Positions 5,501-57,185 of a stretch of 64,000 bases of DNA are shown piece by piece (positions within the stretch are counted from its first letter, which is position 1; each line of letters opens with the position of its first letter). The DNA comes from Escherichia coli (GTDB taxonomy: Bacteria; Pseudomonadota; Gammaproteobacteria; Enterobacterales; Enterobacteriaceae): NCBI RefSeq assembly GCF_036507355.1, contig NZ_AP027877.1, one strand, 5' to 3'. The notes under the pieces were generated by a model that saw only the letters and a list, made by a program, of their open reading frames with translations, did not search any database and had not been told where the DNA came from. Both the position numbers and the translations under genes were made by a program.

Positions 5501-6809
5501 ATGCCTGGATACCCAGACGGTGCAGAGTCGGTGCACGGTTCAGCAGTACCGGGTGTTCGCGGATAACTTCGTCCAGGATATCCCAAACGACAGCTTCTTC
5601 GCGCTCAACCATTTTCTTCGCAGCTTTAATGGTGGTAGCAAGACCACGCAGTTCAAGCTTGCCGTAGATGAATGGTTTGAACAGCTCCAGCGCCATTTTC
5701 TTCGGCAGACCGCACTGATGCAGACGCAGGTATGGACCTACGGTGATTACAGAACGACCGGAGTAGTCAACACGCTTACCGAGCAGGTTCTGACGGAAAC
5801 GACCCTGTTTACCTTTGATCATGTCGGCCAAAGATTTCAGAGGACGCTTGTTAGAACCGGTGATCGCACGACCGCGACGACCGTTATCCAGCAGAGCGTC
5901 TACCGCTTCCTGCAGCATACGTTTTTCGTTACGTACGATGATGTCCGGCGCAGCCAGATCCAGCAGACGTTTCAGACGGTTGTTACGGTTAATGACGCGA
6001 CGATACAGATCGTTCAGGTCAGAAGTCGCGAAACGACCACCATCCAGCGGAACCAACGGACGCAGATCTGGCGGCAGTACCGGCAGAACGGTCAGGATCA
6101 TCCACTCTGGTTTGTTACCAGACTGAACGAACGCTTCCAGCAGTTTGATACGCTTGGTCAGCTTTTTACGCTTAGTTTCGGAGTTGGTTTCGTTCAGCTC
6201 TTCACGCAGCTGTTCGCACTCTTGCTCCAGATCCATGCTCTTCAGCAGAGCCTGGATTGCTTCCGCACCCATCTTCGCGTCGAATTCGTCACCGAACTCT
6301 TCCAGCGCGTCCAGATACTGCTCTTCAGTCAGGATCTGCTGGCGTTCCAGGTTGGTCATACCGCCTTCAATAACCACATAGGATTCGAAGTACAGTACGC
6401 GTTCAATATCGCGCAGCGGCATATCGAGCAGTAGGCCGATACGGGACGGCAGCGATTTCAGGAACCAGATGTGCGCAGTCGGGGAAGCCAGTTCGATGTG
6501 GCCCATACGCTCACGGCGTACTTTAGTCTGGGTCACTTCAACGCCACACTTCTCACAGATGACGCCACGGTGTTTCAGGCGCTTGTACTTACCGCACAGG
6601 CACTCGTAATCTTTTACCGGCCCAAAGATACGGGCGCAGAAAAGGCCGTCACGTTCTGGTTTGAACGTACGGTAGTTGATGGTTTCCGGCTTTTTAACTT
6701 CACCGAAAGACCATGAACGGATCATGTCTGGCGAAGCCAGAGCAATTTTGATCGCATCAAACTCTTCGGTTTTAGTCTGCGCTTTCAGAAACTTTAATAA
6801 ATCTTTCAC
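2586..6809 (-). CDS. rpoC: RNA polymerase beta' subunit
   Basis: 1407 aa ORF beginning [64 protein letters not shown]. Confidence 0.98.
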
Positions 6810-20115: not shown

Positions 20116-20235
20116 ATGCCTGGCAGTTCCCTACTCTCGCATGGGGAGACCCCACACTACCATCGGCGCTACGGCGTTTCACTTCTGAGTTCGGCATGGG
20201 ATCAGGTGGGACCACCGCGCTACGGCCGCCAGGCA
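20116..20235 (-). rRNA. rrfB: 5S ribosomal RNA
   Basis: 120 nt; reverse complement reads TGCCTGGCGGCCGTAGCGCGGTGGTCCCACCTGACCCCATGCCGAACTCAGAAGTGAAACGCCGTAGCGCCGATGGTAGTGTGGGGTCTCCCCATGCGAGAGTAGGGAACTGCCAGGCAT. Confidence 0.97.
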
Positions 20236-20328
20236 AATTCTGTTTTATCAGACCGCTTCTGCGTTCTGATTTAATCTGTATCAGGCTGAAAATCTTCTCT
20301 CAATCCGCCAAAACAGCTTCGGCGTTGT

Positions 20329-23232
<2,904 letters not shown>

Positions 23233-23424
23233 CACAACCCGAAGATGTTTCTTTCGATTCATCATCGTGTTGCGAAAATTTGAGAGACTCACGAACAACT
23301 CTCGTTGTTCAGTGTTTCAATTTTCAGCTTGATCCAGATTTTTAAAGAGCAAATATCTCAAACATCACCCGAAGATGAGTTTTGAGATATTAAGGTCGGC
23401 GACTTTCACTCACAAACCAGCAAG

Positions 23425-23500
23425 TGGCGTCCCCTAGGGGATTCGAACCCCTGTTACCGCCGTGAAAGGGCGGTGTCCTGGGCCTCTAGACGAAGGGGAC
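23425..23500 (-). tRNA. gltT: tRNA-Glu (anticodon UUC), rrn spacer tRNA
   Basis: Reverse complement reads GTCCCCTTCGTCTAGAGGCCCAGGACACCGCCCTTTCACGGCGGTAACAGGGGTTCGAATCCCCTAGGGGACGCCA. Confidence 0.95.
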
Positions 23501-23585
23501 GTATCAGTCTGCTTCGCAAGACGCCTTGCTTTTCACTTTCTATCAGACAATCTGTGTGAGCACTACAAAGAACGCTTCTTTAAGG

Positions 23586-25127
<1,542 letters not shown>

Positions 25128-38409: not shown

Positions 38410-39414
38410 TTAAATAAGAGACTGCGTTTCCGCATAGCCGAAACGAATATTGGCGCACTGTACCGCTTGTGCCGCCGCGCCTTTCAGTAAGTTGTCTTCG
38501 GTCGCCACAATAATCAGATGTTCGCCCTGAACGGCAAACCCGATATCGCAAAATGGTAGCCCAACGACATTTTTCAGCGCCGGAACGCCTTTGTCATACA
38601 GCCGCACCAGCGGTTTATGGGCATACGCCTGCTGTAACACTTGCGCGACTTGCGCCTGGGTCACACCCGGTTTCAGGCGGCAGGTAATGGTTTCGAGAAT
38701 GCCGCGCGGGAAATTGCCCAGATGCGGGGTGAAGATAACGTCAGCACCGAGGTGTGTGGCGATCTCTGGTTGATGGCGATGAGTAAAGACGCCATACGGT
38801 TGCAGGCTAACTTCACAAAAACTATTTGAAATCGCTGCCTTACGTCCTGCACCGCTCACGCCGCTGGTGGCGTTGATCACCGGCCACTGATTGAGGTCAA
38901 GAAGATCGGCATCAATCAACGGTTTCAGCGCCAGCTGTGCCGCCGTCGGATAACAGCCTGGCACCGCAATCAAATTCGCTTCTTTTAATTTATTACCGCT
39001 CCACTCCGCCAGACCGTAGGCTGCCTGTTCCAGCAGTTCCGGGTATTGATGGGTAAAGCCGTAATATTTTTCATAGAAGGTGGCGTCGTTAACACGAAAC
39101 GCGCCGGAAAGGTCGAACACCACGCAGCCCGCTTCAAGAAACTGCGGCGCTAAATCGTGGCTAACTTCATGGGCGGTGGCGAGAAACACTACGTCCACCC
39201 CTGGGCTAAACTCGCTGATATCCGACATCGGCTGCAACGGCAGATCAACGATGCCTTTTAGCTGCGGATGCAAATCGGAGATTAACTTTCCCGCATCATT
39301 GCTTTGCGCTGAAACAGTCAAAGCGGTTATGTTCATATGCGGATGGCGATTTACATAGGTCACTAGCTCTGCGCCAGCGTAGCCGCTGGCACCCACAATC
39401 AGCGTATTCAACAT
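38410..39414 (-). CDS. argC: N-acetyl-gamma-glutamyl-phosphate reductase
   Basis: 334 aa [337 protein letters not shown]. Confidence 0.95.
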
Positions 39415-39499: not shown

Positions 39500-39545
39500 G
39501 TTAGTGTATTTTTATTCATAAATACTGCATGAATATTGATACTAT
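39500..39545. promoter_or_regulatory. ARG boxes (ArgR operators) in the divergent argE / argCBH control region
   Basis: tATTCATaaatacTGcATGAATattgat contains two adjacent copies of the TnTGAATwwwwATTCAnw-like ARG box. Confidence 0.65.
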
Positions 39546-39567
39546 CATGACCAGAGGTGTGTCAACA

Positions 39568-40719
39568 ATGAAAAACAAATTACCGCCATTTATCGAGATT
39601 TACCGTGCTCTGATTGCCACACCTTCAATAAGCGCCACGGAAGAGGCACTCGATCAAAGCAATGCAGATTTAATCACTCTGCTGGCGGACTGGTTTAAAG
39701 ATTTAGGCTTCAATGTGGAAGTGCAGCCTGTGCCAGGAACTCGCAACAAATTTAATATGCTGGCAAGTACCGGACAGGGGGCTGGCGGCTTGTTGCTGGC
39801 GGGGCATACCGATACAGTGCCATTTGATGACGGTCGCTGGACGCGCGATCCGTTTACACTGACGGAGCATGACGGCAAGCTTTACGGCTTAGGCACCGCC
39901 GACATGAAAGGCTTTTTTGCGTTTATCCTTGATGCGCTACGCGATGTCGACGTCACGAAACTGAAAAAACCGCTCTACATTCTGGCGACTGCTGATGAAG
40001 AAACCAGTATGGCCGGAGCGCGTTATTTTGCCGAAACTACCGCCCTGCGCCCGGATTGCGCCATCATTGGCGAACCGACGTCACTACAACCGGTACGCGC
40101 ACATAAAGGTCATATCTCTAACGCCATCCGTATTCAGGGCCAGTCGGGGCACTCCAGCGATCCAGCACGCGGAGTTAACGCTATCGAACTAATGCACGAC
40201 GCCATCGGGCATATTTTGCAATTGCGCGATAACCTGAAAGAACGTTATCACTACGAAGCGTTTACCGTGCCATACCCTACGCTCAACCTCGGGCATATTC
40301 ACGGTGGCGACGCTTCTAACCGTATTTGCGCTTGCTGTGAGTTGCATATGGATATTCGTCCGCTGCCTGGCATGACACTCAATGAACTTAATGGTTTGCT
40401 CAACGATGCATTGGCTCCGGTGAGCGAACGCTGGCCGGGTCGTCTGACGGTCGACGAGCTGCATCCGCCGATCCCTGGCTATGAATGCCCACCGAATCAT
40501 CAACTGGTTGAAGTGGTTGAGAAATTGCTCGGAGCAAAGACCGAAGTGGTGAATTACTGTACCGAAGCGCCGTTTATTCAAACGTTATGCCCGACGCTGG
40601 TTCTGGGGCCGGGTTCAATCAATCAAGCCCATCAGCCTGATGAATATCTGGAGACGAGGTTTCTCAAGCCCACCCGCGAACTGATCACCCAGGTGATTCA
40701 CCATTTTTGCTGGCATTAA
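39568..40719 (+). CDS. argE: acetylornithine deacetylase
   Basis: Start set at [26 protein letters not shown] (383 aa); M20-family deacetylase. Confidence 0.95.
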
Positions 40720-40722
40720 AAC

Positions 40723-40946
40723 GTAGGCCGGATAAGGCGCTCGCGCCGCATCCGGCGCTGTTGCCAAACTCCAGTGCCGCAATAATGTCGGATGCGATGC
40801 TTGCGCATCTTATCCGACCTACAGTGACTCAAACGATGCCCAACCGTAGGCCGGATAAGGCGCTCGCGCCGCATCCGGCACTGTTGCCAAACTCCAGTGC
40901 CGCAATAATGTCGGATGCGATACTTGCGCATCTTATCCGACCTACA
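40723..40946. repeat. REP/BIME cluster: a roughly 101 bp unit containing palindromic units, duplicated in tandem (period 123 bp)
   Basis: gtaggccggataaggcgctcgcgccgcatccggc...gtcggatgcgat.cttgcgcatcttatccgacctaca occurs twice, at 40723 and 40846, with two mismatches. Confidence 0.9.
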
Positions 40947-41193
40947 CCTTTGGTGTTACTTGAGGCGATTTTTTAACATTCCCATAAGTTACGCTTATTT
41001 AAAGCGTCGTGAATTTAATGACGTAAATTCCTGCTATTTATTCGTTTGCTGAAGCGATTTCGCAGCATTTGACGTCATCGCTTTTACGTGGCTTTATAAA
41101 AGACGACGAAAAGCAAAGCCCGAGCATATTCGCGCCAATGCGACGTGAAGGATACAGGGCTATCAAACGATAAGATGGGGTGTCTGGGGTAAT

Positions 41194-43845
41194 ATGAACG
41201 AACAATATTCCGCATTGCGTAGTAATGTCAGTATGCTCGGCAAAGTGCTGGGAGAAACCATCAAGGATGCGTTGGGAGAACACATTCTTGAACGCGTAGA
41301 AACTATCCGTAAGTTGTCCAAATCTTCACGCGCTGGCAATGATGCTAACCGCCAGGAGTTACTCACCACCTTACAAAATTTGTCGAACGACGAGCTGCTG
41401 CCCGTTGCGCGTGCGTTTAGTCAGTTCCTGAACCTGGCCAACACCGCCGAGCAATACCACAGCATTTCGCCGAAAGGCGAAGCTGCCAGCAACCCGGAAG
41501 TGATCGCCCGCACCCTGCGCAAACTGAAAAACCAGCCGGAACTGAGCGAAGACACCATCAAAAAAGCAGTGGAATCGCTGTCGCTGGAACTGGTCCTCAC
41601 GGCTCACCCAACCGAAATTACCCGTCGTACACTGATCCACAAAATGGTGGAAGTGAACGCCTGTTTAAAACAGCTCGATAACAAAGATATCGCTGACTAC
41701 GAACACAACCAGCTGATGCGCCGCCTGCGCCAGTTGATCGCCCAGTCATGGCATACCGATGAAATCCGTAAGCTGCGTCCAAGCCCGGTAGATGAAGCCA
41801 AATGGGGCTTTGCCGTAGTAGAAAACAGCCTGTGGCAAGGCGTACCGAATTACCTGCGCGAACTGAACGAACAACTGGAAGAGAACCTCGGCTACAAACT
41901 GCCCGTCGAATTTGTTCCGGTACGTTTTACCTCGTGGATGGGCGGTGACCGCGACGGCAACCCAAACGTCACTGCCGATATCACCCGCCACGTCCTGCTG
42001 CTCAGCCGTTGGAAAGCCACCGATCTGTTCCTGAAAGATATTCAGGTGCTGGTTTCTGAACTGTCGATGGTTGAAGCGACCCCTGAACTGCTGGCGCTGG
42101 TTGGCGAAGAAGGTGCCGCAGAACCGTATCGCTATCTGATGAAAAACCTGCGTTCTCGCCTGATGGCGACACAGGCATGGCTGGAAGCGCGCCTGAAAGG
42201 CGAAGAACTGCCAAAACCAGAAGGCCTGCTGACACAAAACGAAGAACTGTGGGAACCGCTCTACGCTTGCTACCAGTCACTTCAGGCGTGTGGCATGGGT
42301 ATTATCGCCAACGGCGATCTGCTCGACACCCTGCGCCGCGTGAAATGTTTCGGCGTACCGCTGGTCCGTATTGATATCCGTCAGGAGAGCACCCGCCATA
42401 CCGAAGCGCTGGGCGAGCTGACTCGCTACCTCGGTATCGGCGACTACGAAAGCTGGTCAGAGGCCGACAAACAGGCGTTCCTGATCCGCGAACTGAACTC
42501 CAAACGTCCGCTTCTGCCGCGCAACTGGCAACCAAGCGCCGAAACGCGCGAAGTGCTCGATACCTGCCAGGTGATTGCCGAAGCGCCGCAAGGCTCCATT
42601 GCCGCCTACGTGATCTCGATGGCGAAAACGCCATCCGACGTGCTGGCTGTCCACCTGCTGCTGAAAGAAGCGGGTATCGGGTTTGCGATGCCGGTTGCTC
42701 CGCTGTTTGAAACCCTCGATGACCTGAACAACGCCAACGATGTCATGACCCAGCTGCTCAATATCGACTGGTATCGCGGCCTGATTCAGGGCAAACAGAT
42801 GGTGATGATTGGCTATTCCGACTCAGCAAAAGATGCGGGCGTGATGGCAGCGTCCTGGGCGCAATATCAGGCACAGGATGCATTAATCAAAACCTGCGAA
42901 AAAGCGGGTATTGAGCTGACGTTGTTCCACGGTCGCGGCGGTTCCATTGGTCGCGGCGGCGCACCTGCTCATGCGGCGCTGCTGTCACAACCGCCAGGAA
43001 GCCTGAAAGGTGGCCTGCGCGTGACTGAACAGGGCGAGATGATCCGCTTTAAATATGGTCTGCCAGAAATCACCGTCAGCAGCCTGTCGCTTTACACCGG
43101 GGCGATTCTGGAAGCCAACCTGCTGCCACCACCTGAGCCGAAAGAGAGCTGGCGTCGCATTATGGATGAACTATCAGTCATCTCCTGCGATCTCTACCGT
43201 GGCTACGTACGTGAAAACAAAGATTTTGTGCCTTACTTCCGCTCCGCTACGCCGGAACAGGAACTGGGCAAACTGCCGTTGGGTTCACGTCCGGCGAAAC
43301 GTCGCCCAACCGGCGGCGTCGAGTCACTACGCGCCATTCCGTGGATCTTCGCCTGGACGCAAAACCGTCTGATGCTCCCCGCCTGGCTGGGTGCAGGTAC
43401 GGCGCTGCAAAAAGTGGTCGAAGATGGCAAACAGAGCGAGCTGGAGGCTATGTGCCGCGATTGGCCATTCTTCTCGACGCGTCTCGGCATGCTGGAGATG
43501 GTCTTCGCCAAAGCAGACCTGTGGCTGGCGGAATACTATGACCAACGCCTGGTAGACAAAGCACTGTGGCCGTTAGGTAAAGAGTTACGCAATCTGCAAG
43601 AAGAAGACATCAAAGTGGTGCTGGCGATTGCCAACGATTCCCATCTGATGGCCGATCTGCCGTGGATTGCAGAGTCTATTCAGCTACGGAATATTTACAC
43701 CGACCCGCTGAACGTATTGCAAGCCGAGTTGCTGCACCGCTCCCGCCAGGCAGAAAAAGAAGGCCAAGAACCGGATCCTCGCGTCGAGCAGGCGTTAATG
43801 GTCACTATTGCCGGGATTGCGGCAGGTATGCGTAATACCGGCTAA
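41194..43845 (+). CDS. ppc: phosphoenolpyruvate carboxylase
   Basis: 883 aa [886 protein letters not shown]; PEPCase motifs VLTAHPTE and [10 protein letters not shown]. Confidence 0.97.
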
Positions 43846-54517: not shown

Positions 54518-55180
54518 ATGGAACTGTATCTGGACACCGCTAACGTCGCAGAAGTCGAACGTCTGGCACGCATATTCCCGATTGCCGGGGTGACAACTAA
54601 CCCGAGCATTATCGCTGCCAGCAAGGAGTCCATATGGGAAGTGCTGCCGCGTCTGCAAAAAGCGATTGGTGATGAGGGCATTCTGTTTGCTCAGACCATG
54701 AGCCGCGACGCGCAGGGGATGGTGGAAGAAGCGAAGCGTCTGCGCGACGCCATTCCGGGCATTGTGGTGAAAATCCCGGTGACTTCCGAAGGTCTGGCCG
54801 CCATTAAGATGCTGAAAAAAGAGGGTATTACTACGCTTGGCACCGCAGTGTACAGTGCTGCACAAGGGTTACTGGCCGCGCTGGCAGGGGCAAAATACGT
54901 TGCTCCGTATGTTAACCGCGTAGATGCCCAGGGCGGGGACGGCATTCGTACGGTTCAGGAGCTGCAAGCGCTGTTAGAAATGCACGCACCAGAAAGCATG
55001 GTGCTGGCGGCCAGCTTTAAAACGCCGCGTCAGGCGCTGGACTGTTTACTGGTAGGATGTGAATCCATCACCCTGCCCTTAGATGTAGCGCAACAAATGC
55101 TCAACACCCCTGCGGTAGAGTCAGCTATAGAGAAGTTCGAACACGACTGGAATGCCGCATTTGGCACTACTCATCTCTAA
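54518..55180 (+). CDS. fsaB: fructose-6-phosphate aldolase 2
   Basis: 220 aa [223 protein letters not shown]; transaldolase-like fold. Confidence 0.95.
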
Positions 55181-55190
55181 AGGAGCAATT

Positions 55191-56294
55191 ATGGACCGCA
55201 TTATTCAATCACCGGGTAAATACATCCAGGGCGCTGATGTGATTAATCGTCTGGGCGAATACCTGAAGCCGCTGGCAGAACGCTGGTTAGTGGTGGGTGA
55301 CAAATTTGTTTTAGGTTTTGCTCAATCCACTGTCGAGAAAAGCTTTAAAGATGCTGGACTGGTAGTAGAAATTGCGCCGTTTGGCGGTGAATGTTCGCAA
55401 AATGAGATCGACCGTCTGCGTGGCATCGCGGAGACTGCGCAGTGTGGCGCAATTCTCGGTATCGGTGGCGGAAAAACCCTCGATACTGCCAAAGCACTGG
55501 CACATTTCATGGGTGTTCCGGTAGCGATCGCACCGACTATCGCCTCTACCGATGCACCGTGCAGCGCATTGTCTGTTATCTACACCGATGAGGGTGAGTT
55601 TGACCGCTATCTGCTGTTGCCAAATAACCCGAATATGGTCATTGTCGACACCAAAATCGTCGCTGGCGCACCTGCACGTCTGTTAGCGGCGGGTATCGGC
55701 GATGCGCTGGCAACCTGGTTTGAAGCGCGTGCCTGCTCTCGTAGCGGCGCGACCACCATGGCGGGCGGCAAGTGCACCCAGGCTGCGCTGGCACTGGCTG
55801 AACTGTGCTACAACACCCTGCTGGAAGAAGGCGAAAAAGCGATGCTTGCTGCCGAACAGCATGTAGTGACTCCGGCGCTGGAGCGCGTGATTGAAGCGAA
55901 CACCTATTTGAGCGGTGTTGGTTTTGAAAGTGGTGGTCTGGCTGCGGCGCACGCAGTGCATAACGGCCTGACCGCTATCCCGGACGCGCATCACTATTAT
56001 CACGGTGAAAAAGTGGCATTCGGTACGCTGACGCAGCTGGTTCTGGAAAATGCGCCGGTGGAGGAAATCGAAACCGTAGCTGCCCTTAGCCATGCGGTAG
56101 GTTTGCCAATAACTCTCGCTCAACTGGATATTAAAGAAGATGTCCCGGCGAAAATGCGAATTGTGGCAGAAGCGGCATGTGCAGAAGGTGAAACCATTCA
56201 CAACATGCCTGGCGGCGCGACGCCAGATCAGGTTTACGCCGCACTGCTGGTAGCTGACCAGTATGGACAACGTTTCCTGCAAGAGTGGGAATAA
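55191..56294 (+). CDS. gldA: glycerol dehydrogenase
   Basis: Start set at [24 protein letters not shown] (367 aa); iron-containing alcohol dehydrogenase family. Confidence 0.95.
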
Positions 56295-56339
56295 CCTACT
56301 CCAAACTCCCGGCTTGTCCGGGAGTTTGAACGCAAAATT

Positions 56340-56440
56340 GCCTGATGCGCTACGCTTATCAGGCCTACGCAATCTCTGCAATATATTGAATTTGCGTGCT
56401 TTTTAGGCCAGATAAGGCGTTCACGCCGCATCCGGCACTC
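56340..56440. repeat. REP (repetitive extragenic palindrome) elements downstream of gldA
   Basis: gcctgatgcgctacgcttatcaggcctac and aggccagataaggcgttcacgccgcatccggcac are both classic REP palindromic units. Confidence 0.85.
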
Positions 56441-56567: not shown

Positions 56568-57185
56568 ATGAAAGCTTCACTGGCGCTGCTCAGCCTGCTA
56601 ACGGCATTTACCAGCCACTCCTTAAAATCTCCCGCCGTTCCACCAACCGTGGTACAAATCCAGGCCAATACCAACCTTGCCATCGCAGACGGTGCCAGAC
56701 AGCAAATCGGCAGCACGCTATTTTACGATCCGGCGTATGTGCAGCTTACCTATCCTGGCGGTGATGTCCCGCAAGAACGCGGGGTATGTTCCGATGTGGT
56801 GATCCGTGCATTGCGCAGCCAGAAGGTCGATTTGCAGAAACTGGTGCACGAAGATATGGCGAAGAATTTTGCCGATTATCCGCAAAAGTGGAAGTTAAAG
56901 CGCCCGGACAGCAACATCGATCACCGTCGGGTGCCTAATCTGGAAACCTGGTTTACCCGCCACGATAAAACACGCCCCACCAGCAAGAACCCCAGTGACT
57001 ATCAAGCGGGCGACATTGTCTCCTGGCGATTAGATAACGGGCTGGCACATATTGGGGTGGTGTCAGATGGCTTCGCCCGCGACGGTACGCCGCTGGTGAT
57101 ACATAACATTGGCGCAGGTGCGCAGGAAGAAGATGTGCTGTTTAGCTGGCGCATGGTGGGGCATTATCGTTATTTTGTTAAATAA
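56568..57185 (+). CDS. yijF: DUF1287-family protein YijF (signal peptide predicted)
   Basis: 205 aa ORF MKASLALLSLLTAFTSHSLKSP... in the expected position between gldA and yijE. Confidence 0.88.
   Translation: MKASLALLSLLTAFTSHSLKSPAVPPTVVQIQANTNLAIADGARQQIGSTLFYDPAYVQLTYPGGDVPQERGVCSDVVIRALRSQKVDLQKLVHEDMAKNFADYPQKWKLKRPDSNIDHRRVPNLETWFTRHDKTRPTSKNPSDYQAGDIVSWRLDNGLAHIGVVSDGFARDGTPLVIHNIGAGAQEEDVLFSWRMVGHYRYFVK

What the first reader, a model, noticed from the sequence alone, without database searches (positions are those of the whole stretch)
40723..40946. Tandem duplication of a ~101 bp REP/BIME unit between argE and ppc
Two near-identical copies (two mismatches over about 101 bp) of a composite REP unit sit 123 bp apart. 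They generate spurious repetitive ORFs on both strands (40707-40976 + and 40716-40931 -). The copy number of such BIME repeats is strain-variable and may influence argE/ppc mRNA 3' end stability.
Basis: seen in the sequence. Interest (0 to 1): 0.2.

Follow-up and report, generated by a model that had tools for sequence, protein, structure and literature searches.

The report
Variable REP repeat array after argE
This is an ordinary two-copy version of a well-known E. coli palindromic repeat (REP/BIME) array that sits just after the argE gene, and its copy number differs between strains because the copies recombine with each other.

Summary
Two 100-bp units (40723-40822 and 40846-40945) lie 123 bp apart and differ at two bases (40757, 40799). 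Each unit is a Y-type REP, a 28-nt linker and an inverted Z2-like REP, and it folds as a ~100-nt hairpin. The array starts 3 nt after the argE stop codon and lies upstream of the ppc promoter region, not at the ppc 3' end.

The locus varies in unit number:
- K-12 has 3 units and a K-12-derived isolate has 4.
- Other E. coli have 1, a half unit, or an unrelated element.
- E. whittamii has 5.
- In a systematic sample of 60 genomes, 5 had two units.
- 1,294 of 5,426 genomes carry an inter-unit junction.

Hybrid unit haplotypes show repeated unequal recombination or slippage. The window allele equals K-12 minus one 123-bp register.

The 23-nt inter-unit linker is native spacer. It probably is the left arm of the ancestral argE terminator, so the last unit sits in that terminator's loop.

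The likely function is inferred, not shown: it shapes the argE mRNA 3' end and may dampen ArgE translation.

Tandem BIMEs with strain-variable copy number are already documented. Interest is low.

The parts
39568..40719 (+). argE (acetylornithine deacetylase) CDS; stop codon TAA at 40717-40719
   Evidence: ORF 39529-40719. RefSeq genomes annotate a 1152-nt argE ending at the same stop, which gives the start at 39568.
40723..40822 (+). Unit 1 (REPIN-like): Y REP 40723-40757 with 5' GTAG, internal linker 40758-40785, inverted Z2-like REP 40786-40822 ending in CTAC
   Evidence: Sequence; blastn-short against Y and Z queries; Rfam naRNA4 alignment pairs both hairpins; folds alone as one long hairpin, -58.2 kcal/mol.
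40823..40845 (+). Inter-unit linker AGTGACTCAAACGATGCCCAACC: trapped native spacer, probably the left arm of the ancestral argE terminator
   Evidence: Homologous unique sequence occurs in the REP-less E. coli allele L006 and after the unit(s) in E. albertii and a divergent Escherichia. It is predicted to pair with 40949-40964 around unit 2.
40846..40945 (+). Unit 2 (REPIN-like): Y REP 40846-40880, internal linker 40881-40908, inverted Z2-like REP 40909-40945
   Evidence: folds alone at -53.7 kcal/mol. It corresponds to the left end of K-12 unit B joined to the right end of K-12 unit C.
40946..40974 (+). Remnant of the ancestral argE intrinsic terminator: right arm (TTTGGTGTTACTTGAG) and T-run 40969-40974
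   Evidence: Aligns with hairpin-plus-T-run terminators of Citrobacter species. Alone it folds weakly, -7.5 versus -16 to -21 kcal/mol. The consensus terminator scan finds nothing here.
40975..41193 (+). Unique spacer conserved across Enterobacteriaceae (presumed ppc promoter and 5' region)
   Evidence: Conserved blocks in spacers from about 100 species. Promoter function is inferred, not tested.
41194..43845 (+). ppc (phosphoenolpyruvate carboxylase) CDS
   Evidence: 883-aa ORF; RefSeq annotation of homologous loci.
40707..40976 (+). Spurious 89-aa ORF created by the repeats
   Evidence: Only a sub-threshold Pfam match over 24 aa. Its length depends on unit number and it is absent from REP-less alleles.
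40716..40931 (-). Spurious 71-aa ORF created by the repeats
   Evidence: no Pfam match.

Best explanation
This is the two-unit allele of a locus-specific, variable-number tandem array of REP pairs in the argE 3' untranslated region. Each 100-bp unit is a Y REP plus an inverted Z2-like REP, which makes it BIME-2-like or 'atypical BIME', and REPIN-like. Units are separated by 23 nt of native spacer. Shown here: unit number changes recurrently by unequal recombination or replication slippage between the near-identical units, and the window allele equals the K-12 A-B-C array with one 123-bp register removed by a B x C exchange. Inferred from comparison: a first REP pair sat directly after the argE stop codon, and a second entered the loop or left arm of the ancestral argE intrinsic terminator, trapping that left arm as the linker. 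Inferred from published work on other REPs, not tested here: the transcribed hairpins block 3'-to-5' exonucleases, partly terminate transcription before ppc, and may lower ArgE translation by stalling terminating ribosomes, because the first stem starts 3 nt after the stop codon. More units would mean more barriers.
For: Repeat and anatomy. Both hairpins of each unit align to the Rfam naRNA4 (REP325) model at 56.7 and 53.3 bits, with paired substitutions in the Z stem.

RNA folding: each unit alone gives -58.2 and -53.7 kcal/mol; the region 40700-40990 gives -128.1 kcal/mol, z = -9.0.

Allele series of 0.5, 1, 2, 3 and 4 units in E. coli, always n units and n-1 linkers; five units in E. whittamii and two-plus in E. 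albertii.

Frequencies: a systematic sample of 60 genomes gave 17 half-unit, 24 one-unit, 5 two-unit, 11 three-unit and 2 other-element alleles. The inter-unit junction is in 1,294 of 5,426 genomes. The internal linker is in 3,010 genomes, and K-12 gives exactly 3 places, so the unit is locus-specific.

Hybrid haplotypes: A-(B/C) in the window and MB50, B-C in XJ23PTE1 and 39EVA, an A/C hybrid single unit, and A-A-B-C in a K-12 derivative.

Linker as native sequence and terminator arm.

Literature: tandem BIME number varies between strains (PMC3333891; PMC1187871). REP325 acts as both a partial terminator and an upstream mRNA stabiliser (bioRxiv 10.64898/2026.03.23.713779). REPs fewer than 16 nt from a stop codon lower translation (Liang et al. 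2015, as summarised in PMC12306157).
Against: No expression, 3'-end or half-life data for this locus were available, so all functional steps are by analogy. The 2026 preprint stresses that REP effects depend on context and that REPs do not uniformly change half-lives. The linker/right-arm pairing is only marginally better than shuffled linkers (11% of shuffles fold as well), and the consensus scan calls no terminator. Homologous recombination and slippage cannot be told apart from RAYT-mediated events using sequence alone. The direction of change (3 to 2 units versus 2 to 3) rests on parsimony.
Confidence: 0.85

Rival explanations
1. The array is selectively neutral, selfish or hitch-hiking DNA. 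It has no measurable effect on argE or ppc expression, and copy-number variation is mutational noise.
For: E. coli tolerates every state, from a REP-less allele to at least four units, and one-unit and half-unit alleles together make up about two thirds of sampled genomes. The 2026 preprint reports large variance and no uniform half-life effect of REPs.
Against: In all Escherichia species examined, some palindromic element sits directly after the argE stop codon, and other genera have a terminator there. This suggests a structured 3' end is needed. REPs this close to a stop codon had measurable effects in the cases tested (PMC12306157 summarising Liang 2015).
Confidence: 0.3
2. Copy-number change is catalysed by the REP-associated tyrosine transposase (TnpA-REP/RAYT) through cleavage and strand transfer at iREP and linker sites, not by homologous recombination or slippage.
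For: TnpA-REP cleaves at CC|TAC in iREPs and recombines BIMEs in vitro, and this was proposed to explain copy-number variation (PMC3333891). The units here carry GTAG feet and GACC|TACA iREP sites.
Against: At least one exchange maps inside a unit rather than at a unit edge: the one-unit A/C hybrid crossed over between the two internal SNPs. Changes are exact 123-bp registers, as expected for homology-driven misalignment of 100-bp repeats that are 98% identical. No in vivo RAYT activity on chromosomal BIMEs is documented in the papers read.
Confidence: 0.12
3. The main role is at the DNA level. The Y/Z2 array is a DNA gyrase binding and cleavage site or a topological insulator between argE and the highly expressed ppc.
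For: BIME-2 repeats are reported in vivo gyrase targets, and REPs are described as insulators of transcription-induced supercoiling (reference lists and introductions of PMC3479197 and PMC3333891). ppc has about 23-fold more normalised reads than argE in the preprint's K-12 RNA-seq table.
Against: Nothing here tests gyrase binding. The internal linker is 17 nt longer than in the canonical BIME-2 REP325, and whether that is compatible with gyrase recognition is unknown. This role does not exclude the RNA-level explanation.
Confidence: 0.15
4. The units encode naRNA4-like nucleoid-associated RNAs that work with HU to condense the chromosome.
For: Sub-threshold matches to Rfam naRNA4 RF02564 on the + strand (56.7 and 53.3 bits; gathering score 59.5).
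Against: The scores are below the family threshold, and the model mainly describes any Y-Z2 pair. The 2026 preprint found no effect of REP325 or naRNA4 on nucleoid compaction.
Confidence: 0.02
5. The ORFs across the array (89 aa on +, 71 aa on -) encode real repetitive proteins.
For: The ORFs are open on both strands. PGAP calls a 'hypothetical protein' here in a few genomes.
Against: No Pfam family above threshold. ORF length changes by 41 codons per unit, and the ORF is lost in half-unit and REP-less alleles. The reading frames follow simply from a 123-bp period. The + ORF starts at a TTG inside argE.
Confidence: 0.01

Closest known systems
BIME-2 / atypical BIME of E. coli (tandem Y + Z2 palindromic units; for example REP325 between yjdM and yjdN, the source of naRNA4)
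   Same: Y REP and Z2-length REP in inverse orientation. Arranged as tandem copies in a 3' UTR. Unit sequence is well conserved within the locus. Copy number is polymorphic between strains, which are the properties listed for BIME-2 and atypical BIMEs in PMC3333891 and PMC1187871.
   Different: The REP-iREP linker is 28 nt, 17 nt longer than in REP325. The Z unit differs from the recalled Z2 consensus at 7 of 37 positions, six of them forming three compensatory pairs. The between-unit linker is native argE-ppc spacer, not demonstrably one of the canonical s, l or r motifs.
REPIN (REP doublet forming a long hairpin; Bertels and Rainey, PMC3116915, PMC3337134)
   Same: Two REPs in inverted orientation with a spacer. 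Each unit folds as one ~100-nt hairpin that is more stable than the two separate REP hairpins (-58 versus about -41 kcal/mol). GTAG/CTAC feet.
   Different: REPINs are defined as RAYT-mobilised units dispersed through the genome. This exact unit, with its internal linker, is confined to one locus in E. coli and multiplies in tandem.
BIME-1 (Y + Z1 with L linker and an IHF site; RIB/RIP)
   Same: A pair of inverted REPs at the end of a transcription unit.
   Different: The Z unit has Z2 length, not Z1. There is no IHF consensus in the array. It occurs in tandem copies, whereas BIME-1 is single-copy. A BIME-1-like Z1+Y pair does occur elsewhere in the window, at 56339-56437.
Bacterial VNTR / minisatellite loci
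   Same: A 123-bp period. 0.5 to at least 4 units within E. coli and 5 in E. whittamii. Recurrent gain and loss, with hybrid units.
   Different: The repeat unit is a genome-wide palindromic element family rather than anonymous sequence.

Membership tests
REP (E. coli palindromic unit), Y type | 30-40 nt imperfect palindrome with a conserved GTAG 5' of the hairpin foot, located outside genes | tested here: met
   GTAGGCCGGATAAGGCGCTCGCGCCGCATCCGGC at 40723 and 40846. Hairpin of -21.8 kcal/mol with an internal mismatch. Close to the y REP crystallised with TnpA-REP, GTAGGACGGATAAGGCGTTTACGCCGCATCCG (PMC3479197). Lies between argE and ppc.
REP, Z2 type | Longer (~37-40 nt) Z-type palindrome with an inner GCGAYGC...GCRTCGC stem | tested here: inconclusive
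   Same length (37 nt) and architecture. Both stems pair in the naRNA4 covariance-model alignment. 30 of 37 positions match a Z2 consensus recalled from memory, with three compensatory pair changes. No curated Z2 consensus was available, so I call it 'Z2-like'.
BIME-2 | Composed of Y and Z2 units in alternating orientation | tested here: met
   Y REP followed by an inverted Z2-like REP in each unit.
BIME-2 | Occurs as multiple tandem copies whose number varies between strains | tested here: met
   Two here. One to four in E. coli genomes and five in E. whittamii.
BIME-2 | Short S linker between REP and iREP, and s, l or r flanking motifs | tested here: inconclusive
   The internal linker is 28 nt, 17 nt longer than in REP325. 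The flanking linker matches native spacer. 'Atypical BIME' may therefore be the correct label.
BIME-1 | Y + Z1 with a conserved L linker carrying an IHF site; single copy | tested here: not met
   The Z unit has Z2 length. No WATCAANNNNTTR site falls in 40700-40950. The units are in tandem copies.
Rfam RF02564 naRNA4 | Score at or above the gathering threshold of 59.5 bits | tested here: not met
   56.7 and 53.3 bits. No hit at gathering threshold in the whole-window scan.
REPIN | Two inverted REPs plus spacer that form one long hairpin | tested here: met
   Single-unit folds of -58.2 and -53.7 kcal/mol pair Y with Z along the whole unit.
REPIN | Mobilised and dispersed by a RAYT transposase | not testable with these tools
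   The unit with its linker occurs only at this locus in E. coli. RAYT activity cannot be assessed from sequence.
Translation-damping REP (Liang, Rudd and Deutscher 2015 rule) | REP hairpin begins fewer than 16 nt after the stop codon of the upstream ORF | tested here: met
   TAA at 40717-40719 and GTAG at 40723, leaving 3 nt between them. The rule is as summarised in PMC12306157. The effect on ArgE itself was not tested.
Intrinsic (Rho-independent) terminator | G+C-rich hairpin immediately followed by a T-run | tested here: inconclusive
   The consensus scan finds none. The remnant hairpin is weak at -7.5 kcal/mol. A composite stem (linker x 40949-40964) enclosing unit 2 and ending 4 nt before T6 is the predicted minimum-energy fold, but it is barely better than shuffled controls.

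The most novel reading that the evidence does not exclude
Unit number at this locus could act as a natural expression dial. Alleles that keep at least one linker (two or more units) can still form the ancestral argE terminator stem around the last REP pair. One-unit and half-unit alleles, about two thirds of sampled E. coli, have lost that left arm. The allelic series would then set different levels of argE 3'-end formation, ArgE translation and read-through or insulation toward ppc. Recurrent changes, including 3 to 4 units within a K-12 lineage isolated from mouse gut, might be selected rather than neutral.
Probability: 0.12. Interest if true: 0.35.

Novelty: already known. Interest (0 to 1): 0.1.

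Why it matters
It matters little in itself. REP/BIME arrays and their between-strain length polymorphism have been described since the 1990s, and the K-12 reference genome carries the three-unit version of this array.

The practical value is threefold:
- The two ORFs across the array should not be annotated as genes.
- The locus is a clean natural allelic series (REP-less, half, 1, 2, 3, 4 and 5 units) next to two well-studied genes. It could serve to test current ideas about REPs as 3'-UTR terminators, stabilisers and translation dampers.
- The locus shows concretely how a REP pair can settle inside an existing terminator and then expand by recombination.

Tried and rejected
- Primary papers not held: Liang, Rudd and Deutscher 2015 and Bachellier et al. 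1997. I relied on summaries in PMC12306157, PMC1187871 and PMC3333891. The supplements of PMC3333891 are not held either.
- Early literature searches with loose terms returned irrelevant papers.
- The K-12 MG1655 annotation in this collection lists no REP features, so the official REP name for this locus could not be retrieved.
- A REP pattern with the wrong loop spacing found nothing, and a fuzzy-regex scan timed out. blastn-short replaced both.
- The consensus promoter/terminator scan found no terminator and no + strand promoter in 40500-41300.
- IHF-site reading rejected: no consensus site in the array.
- naRNA4 membership rejected: below the gathering score.
- Protein-coding reading of the ORFs rejected.
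- The junction probe undercounts units when junctions carry SNPs: the second K-12 junction is missed. It is therefore used only as a count of genomes with at least two units.
- The internal-linker probe detects 55% of genomes, against 67% with at least one unit in the size sample. Divergent linkers probably escape megablast, so exact frequencies remain approximate.
- The maximum of 9 probe places in one genome was not inspected.

Full report
**Observation**

Tandem Repeats Finder reports 40722-40946, period 123, 1.8 copies, 98% matches. The repeat finder reports two 105-nt copies. In register +123, positions 40722-40823 and 40845-40946 are identical except at 40757 and 40799, both G in copy 1 and A in copy 2.

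The two ORFs exist: 40707-40976 on the + strand and 40716-40931 on the - strand. They run through the array on both strands because 123 is a multiple of three. Neither reaches a Pfam threshold.

**Context**

- argC lies at 38410-39414 on the - strand.
- argE ends with TAA at 40717-40719.
- ppc starts at 41194. Both argE and ppc are on the + strand (RefSeq annotation of homologous loci).
- The whole-window Rfam scan shows an rRNA operon (5S, 23S and 16S, 20118-25127), a cobalamin riboswitch and OxyS. These, with argCBH/oxyR and ppc, are what I expect from memory for this part of the E. coli chromosome.
- Over 24 kb the window is at most 98.9% identical to any of 5,426 complete RefSeq E. coli genomes. 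It therefore comes from an E. coli or Shigella-type lineage that is not closely represented there.

**Anatomy**

Each unit runs from GTAG to CTAC and is 100 bp long (40723-40822 and 40846-40945). A unit has three parts:

- a Y-type REP (40723-40757; 40846-40880);
- a 28-nt internal linker;
- an inverted Z2-like REP (40786-40822; 40909-40945).

A 23-nt linker (40823-40845) separates the two units.

Both hairpins of each unit align to the Rfam naRNA4 model, which was built on the Y-Z2 pairs of REP325. The scores are 56.7 and 53.3 bits, just under the 59.5-bit gathering score, and the alignment shows a 17-nt insertion in the internal linker.

A unit alone folds into one ~100-nt hairpin at -58.2 or -53.7 kcal/mol. 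The two separate REP hairpins together give about -41 kcal/mol. The region 40700-40990 folds at -128.1 kcal/mol, with z = -9.0 against shuffles.

The first stem begins 3 nt after the argE stop codon. The only other REPs in the 64-kb window are a Z1+Y pair at 56339-56437. There is no IHF consensus site in the array.

**Population comparison**

The spacer from the argE stop to the ppc ATG varies as follows:

| Spacer length | Content | Example |
|---|---|---|
| 474 bp | 2 units | this window |
| 597 bp | 3 units | K-12 MG1655 |
| 720 bp | 4 units | PG20180058, a K-12-derived mouse-gut isolate |
| 351 bp | 1 unit | 2017.04.03CC |
| 456 bp | 2 units, with an 18-bp deletion in the first Y REP | 14EC047 |
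| 301 bp | only the Z2-like REP plus a GTAGGCC remnant | Z1323MEC0001 |
| 411 bp | an unrelated G+C-rich palindromic element | elppa4 |

I used a query made of argE and ppc-side anchors with the array removed. A systematic sample of 60 of the 5,425 matching genomes gave these insert sizes:

| Insert size | Interpretation | Genomes |
|---|---|---|
| 54 bp | half unit | 17 |
| 104 bp | one unit | 24 |
| 164 bp | other element | 2 |
| 227 bp | two units | 5 |
| 350 bp | three units | 11 |
| partial match | not scored | 1 |

The 62-nt inter-unit junction occurs in 1,294 of 5,426 genomes. A 56-nt probe on the internal linker occurs in 3,010 genomes, at 5,587 places and up to 9 per genome. K-12 strains give exactly three places, so the unit with its linker is specific to this locus.

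**How the copy number changes**

K-12's three units can be told apart by SNPs:

- A carries GGCG, GATG and CCTAC.
- B starts with C-GTAGG and carries GGCA, GATA and CCGAC.
- C starts with T-GTAGG and carries GGCA, GATA and CCTAC.

The observed arrays are:

- MG1655: A-B-C.
- The K-12 derivative PG20180058: A-A-B-C.
- The window and strain MB50: A followed by a B/C hybrid. The two arrays are identical although their flanks differ.
- XJ23PTE1 and 39EVA: B-C.
- The one-unit allele of 2017.04.03CC: an A/C hybrid that crossed over between the two internal SNPs.
- 14EC033 and UCPROB-001: further two-unit haplotypes.

Every allele has n units and n-1 linkers. This is the pattern expected from recurrent unequal recombination or replication slippage between 100-bp repeats that are about 98% identical. 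The window allele is the K-12 array minus one exact 123-bp register.

RAYT-mediated recombination has been demonstrated in vitro for BIMEs (PMC3333891). It cannot be excluded here. It is not needed, however, and it fits the internal crossover point of the one-unit hybrid less well.

**Origin**

A scan of one genome per species with the conserved ppc start returned 120 loci, and 102 of them gave an argE-ppc spacer. Most spacers are 220-300 bp, about the length of the window's non-repeat part (247 bp).

Citrobacter species have an ordinary hairpin-plus-T-run terminator directly after argE, at -16 to -21 kcal/mol. Within Escherichia:

- E. whittamii has five units.
- E. albertii has two units, a third linker and a 13-nt Z tail.
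- A divergent 'E. coli' species representative (SCPM-O-B-8794) has one unit followed by native sequence and a T-run.

The linker sequence CTCAAACGATGCCCAA recurs as unique, non-REP sequence in the REP-less E. coli allele. There it forms the left arm of a hairpin whose right arm is TTTGGTGTTAATTGAG, followed by GCGATTTTTT.

In the window, the predicted minimum-energy fold of 40823-40980 pairs the linker with 40949-40964 around unit 2, ending 4 nt before the T-run. I therefore infer that the second REP pair entered the loop or left arm of the ancestral argE terminator, trapping that arm as the inter-unit linker. One-unit and half-unit alleles have lost the arm.

This inference is moderate in strength. 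Eleven percent of shuffled linkers pair with the right arm as well as the real one does, and the consensus scan calls no terminator.

**Likely function (inferred, not shown)**

The array is transcribed as the argE 3' UTR if transcription passes the stop codon. Three published results bear on what it might do:

- REP325, a Y/Z2 array, acts both as a partly Rho-dependent attenuator of the downstream gene and as a stabiliser of the upstream mRNA. It yields a ladder of transcripts ending after successive hairpins. The earlier HU-naRNA4 nucleoid-compaction model was not supported (bioRxiv 10.64898/2026.03.23.713779).
- REPs fewer than 16 nt from a stop codon lower translation of the upstream gene by stalling ribosomes (Liang et al. 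2015, as summarised in PMC12306157). That paper's enrichment analysis of genes with a REP close to the stop codon also mentions arginine biosynthesis, though I saw only part of that passage.
- BIME-2 arrays are also reported gyrase targets (cited in PMC3479197 and PMC3333891). This is a rival role that does not exclude the others.

By analogy, the array most likely defines and protects the argE mRNA 3' end, limits read-through toward ppc, and may dampen ArgE synthesis. More units would mean more barriers.

The array lies 5' of ppc, so it cannot act on the ppc mRNA 3' end. In the preprint's K-12 RNA-seq table, ppc has about 23-fold more normalised reads than argE. This is consistent with ppc depending on its own promoter.

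**Comparison with known families**

By composition and behaviour this is a BIME-2-like or 'atypical' BIME: Y plus a Z2-like unit, in tandem, with polymorphic number. Each unit is also REPIN-like.

It fails BIME-1 criteria and falls below the Rfam naRNA4 threshold. Whether its linkers qualify as the canonical S, s, l or r motifs could not be tested.

[quoted passage not shown] Chiapello et al., citing Bachellier et al. 1997, report high length polymorphism of BIME-2 loci (PMC1187871).

**Verdict**

The kind of feature and its behaviour are already known.

The locus-specific additions are minor and descriptive:

- the allele spectrum and approximate frequencies;
- hybrid haplotypes that demonstrate recurrent exchange;
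- the linker as trapped terminator arm;
- the position 3 nt after the stop codon.

Interest is low.

Noticed in passing
window 56339-56437: A second, unrelated REP pair: a Z1-type REP (56339-56368, - strand, 30/30 match to the recalled Z1 consensus) and a Y REP (56404-56437, + strand). The arrangement is BIME-1-like. It lies just after the 380-aa ORF 55152-56294 (+) and before ORF 56568-57185 (+).
   Followed up: partly
L006 (E. coli elppa4, NZ_CP083512.1), spacer positions about 45-85; also L012 (Enterobacter cloacae) and L118: About 3% of sampled E. coli genomes have no REPs after argE. They carry a different G+C-rich palindromic element instead (GTCCCCTCGCCCCTTCGGGGAGAGGGTTAGGGTGAGGGG). It closely resembles the element at the same position in E. 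cloacae (GTCCCCTCTCCCTGTGGGAGAGGGTTAGGGTGAGGGC). From memory it may be box-C-like. Whether it is ancestral or came in by recombination is unknown.
   Followed up: partly
L128 (E. coli O16:H48 PG20180058, mouse gut), spacer 720 bp: A K-12-derived isolate carries four units (A-A-B-C) where MG1655 has three. This is a copy-number gain within a laboratory lineage. A sister isolate, PG20180172, shows two identical junctions, consistent with the same allele. Whether the gain arose in the mouse gut or in the lab ancestor is unknown.
   Followed up: partly
window 40723-40945 versus L129 (strain MB50): The window's two-unit array is base-for-base identical to that of MB50, yet the downstream flanks differ: the window has TTGAGGCG and ATTCCCAT, and MB50 has TTGGGGCG and ATTTCCAT. 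The window-type flank is shared with alleles that have different arrays. This implies either convergent contraction or recombination within the spacer.
   Followed up: no
L063 (Salmonella enterica subsp. diarizonae), L049, L070, L084, L086 (Citrobacter spp.), ppc-proximal part of the spacer: These species carry an extra ~100-bp insertion close to ppc that contains CCCAGGGAGCTTACATAAGTAAGTGACCTGGGTGGG. From memory this resembles the ERIC (enterobacterial repetitive intergenic consensus) core. E. coli lacks it. The same spacer therefore hosts different repeat families in different genera.
   Followed up: no
window 28000-52000: The best identity to any of 5,426 complete RefSeq E. coli genomes over 24 kb is 98.9%. 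Only 48-65 genomes are at least 99% identical around the locus. The source lineage is therefore poorly represented there, and could be Shigella or a rare E. coli lineage.
   Followed up: partly
(E. coli genome collection): At least one genome has 9 matches to the locus-specific internal-linker probe. This suggests arrays of up to about nine units, or a duplicated region. The genome was not identified.
   Followed up: no
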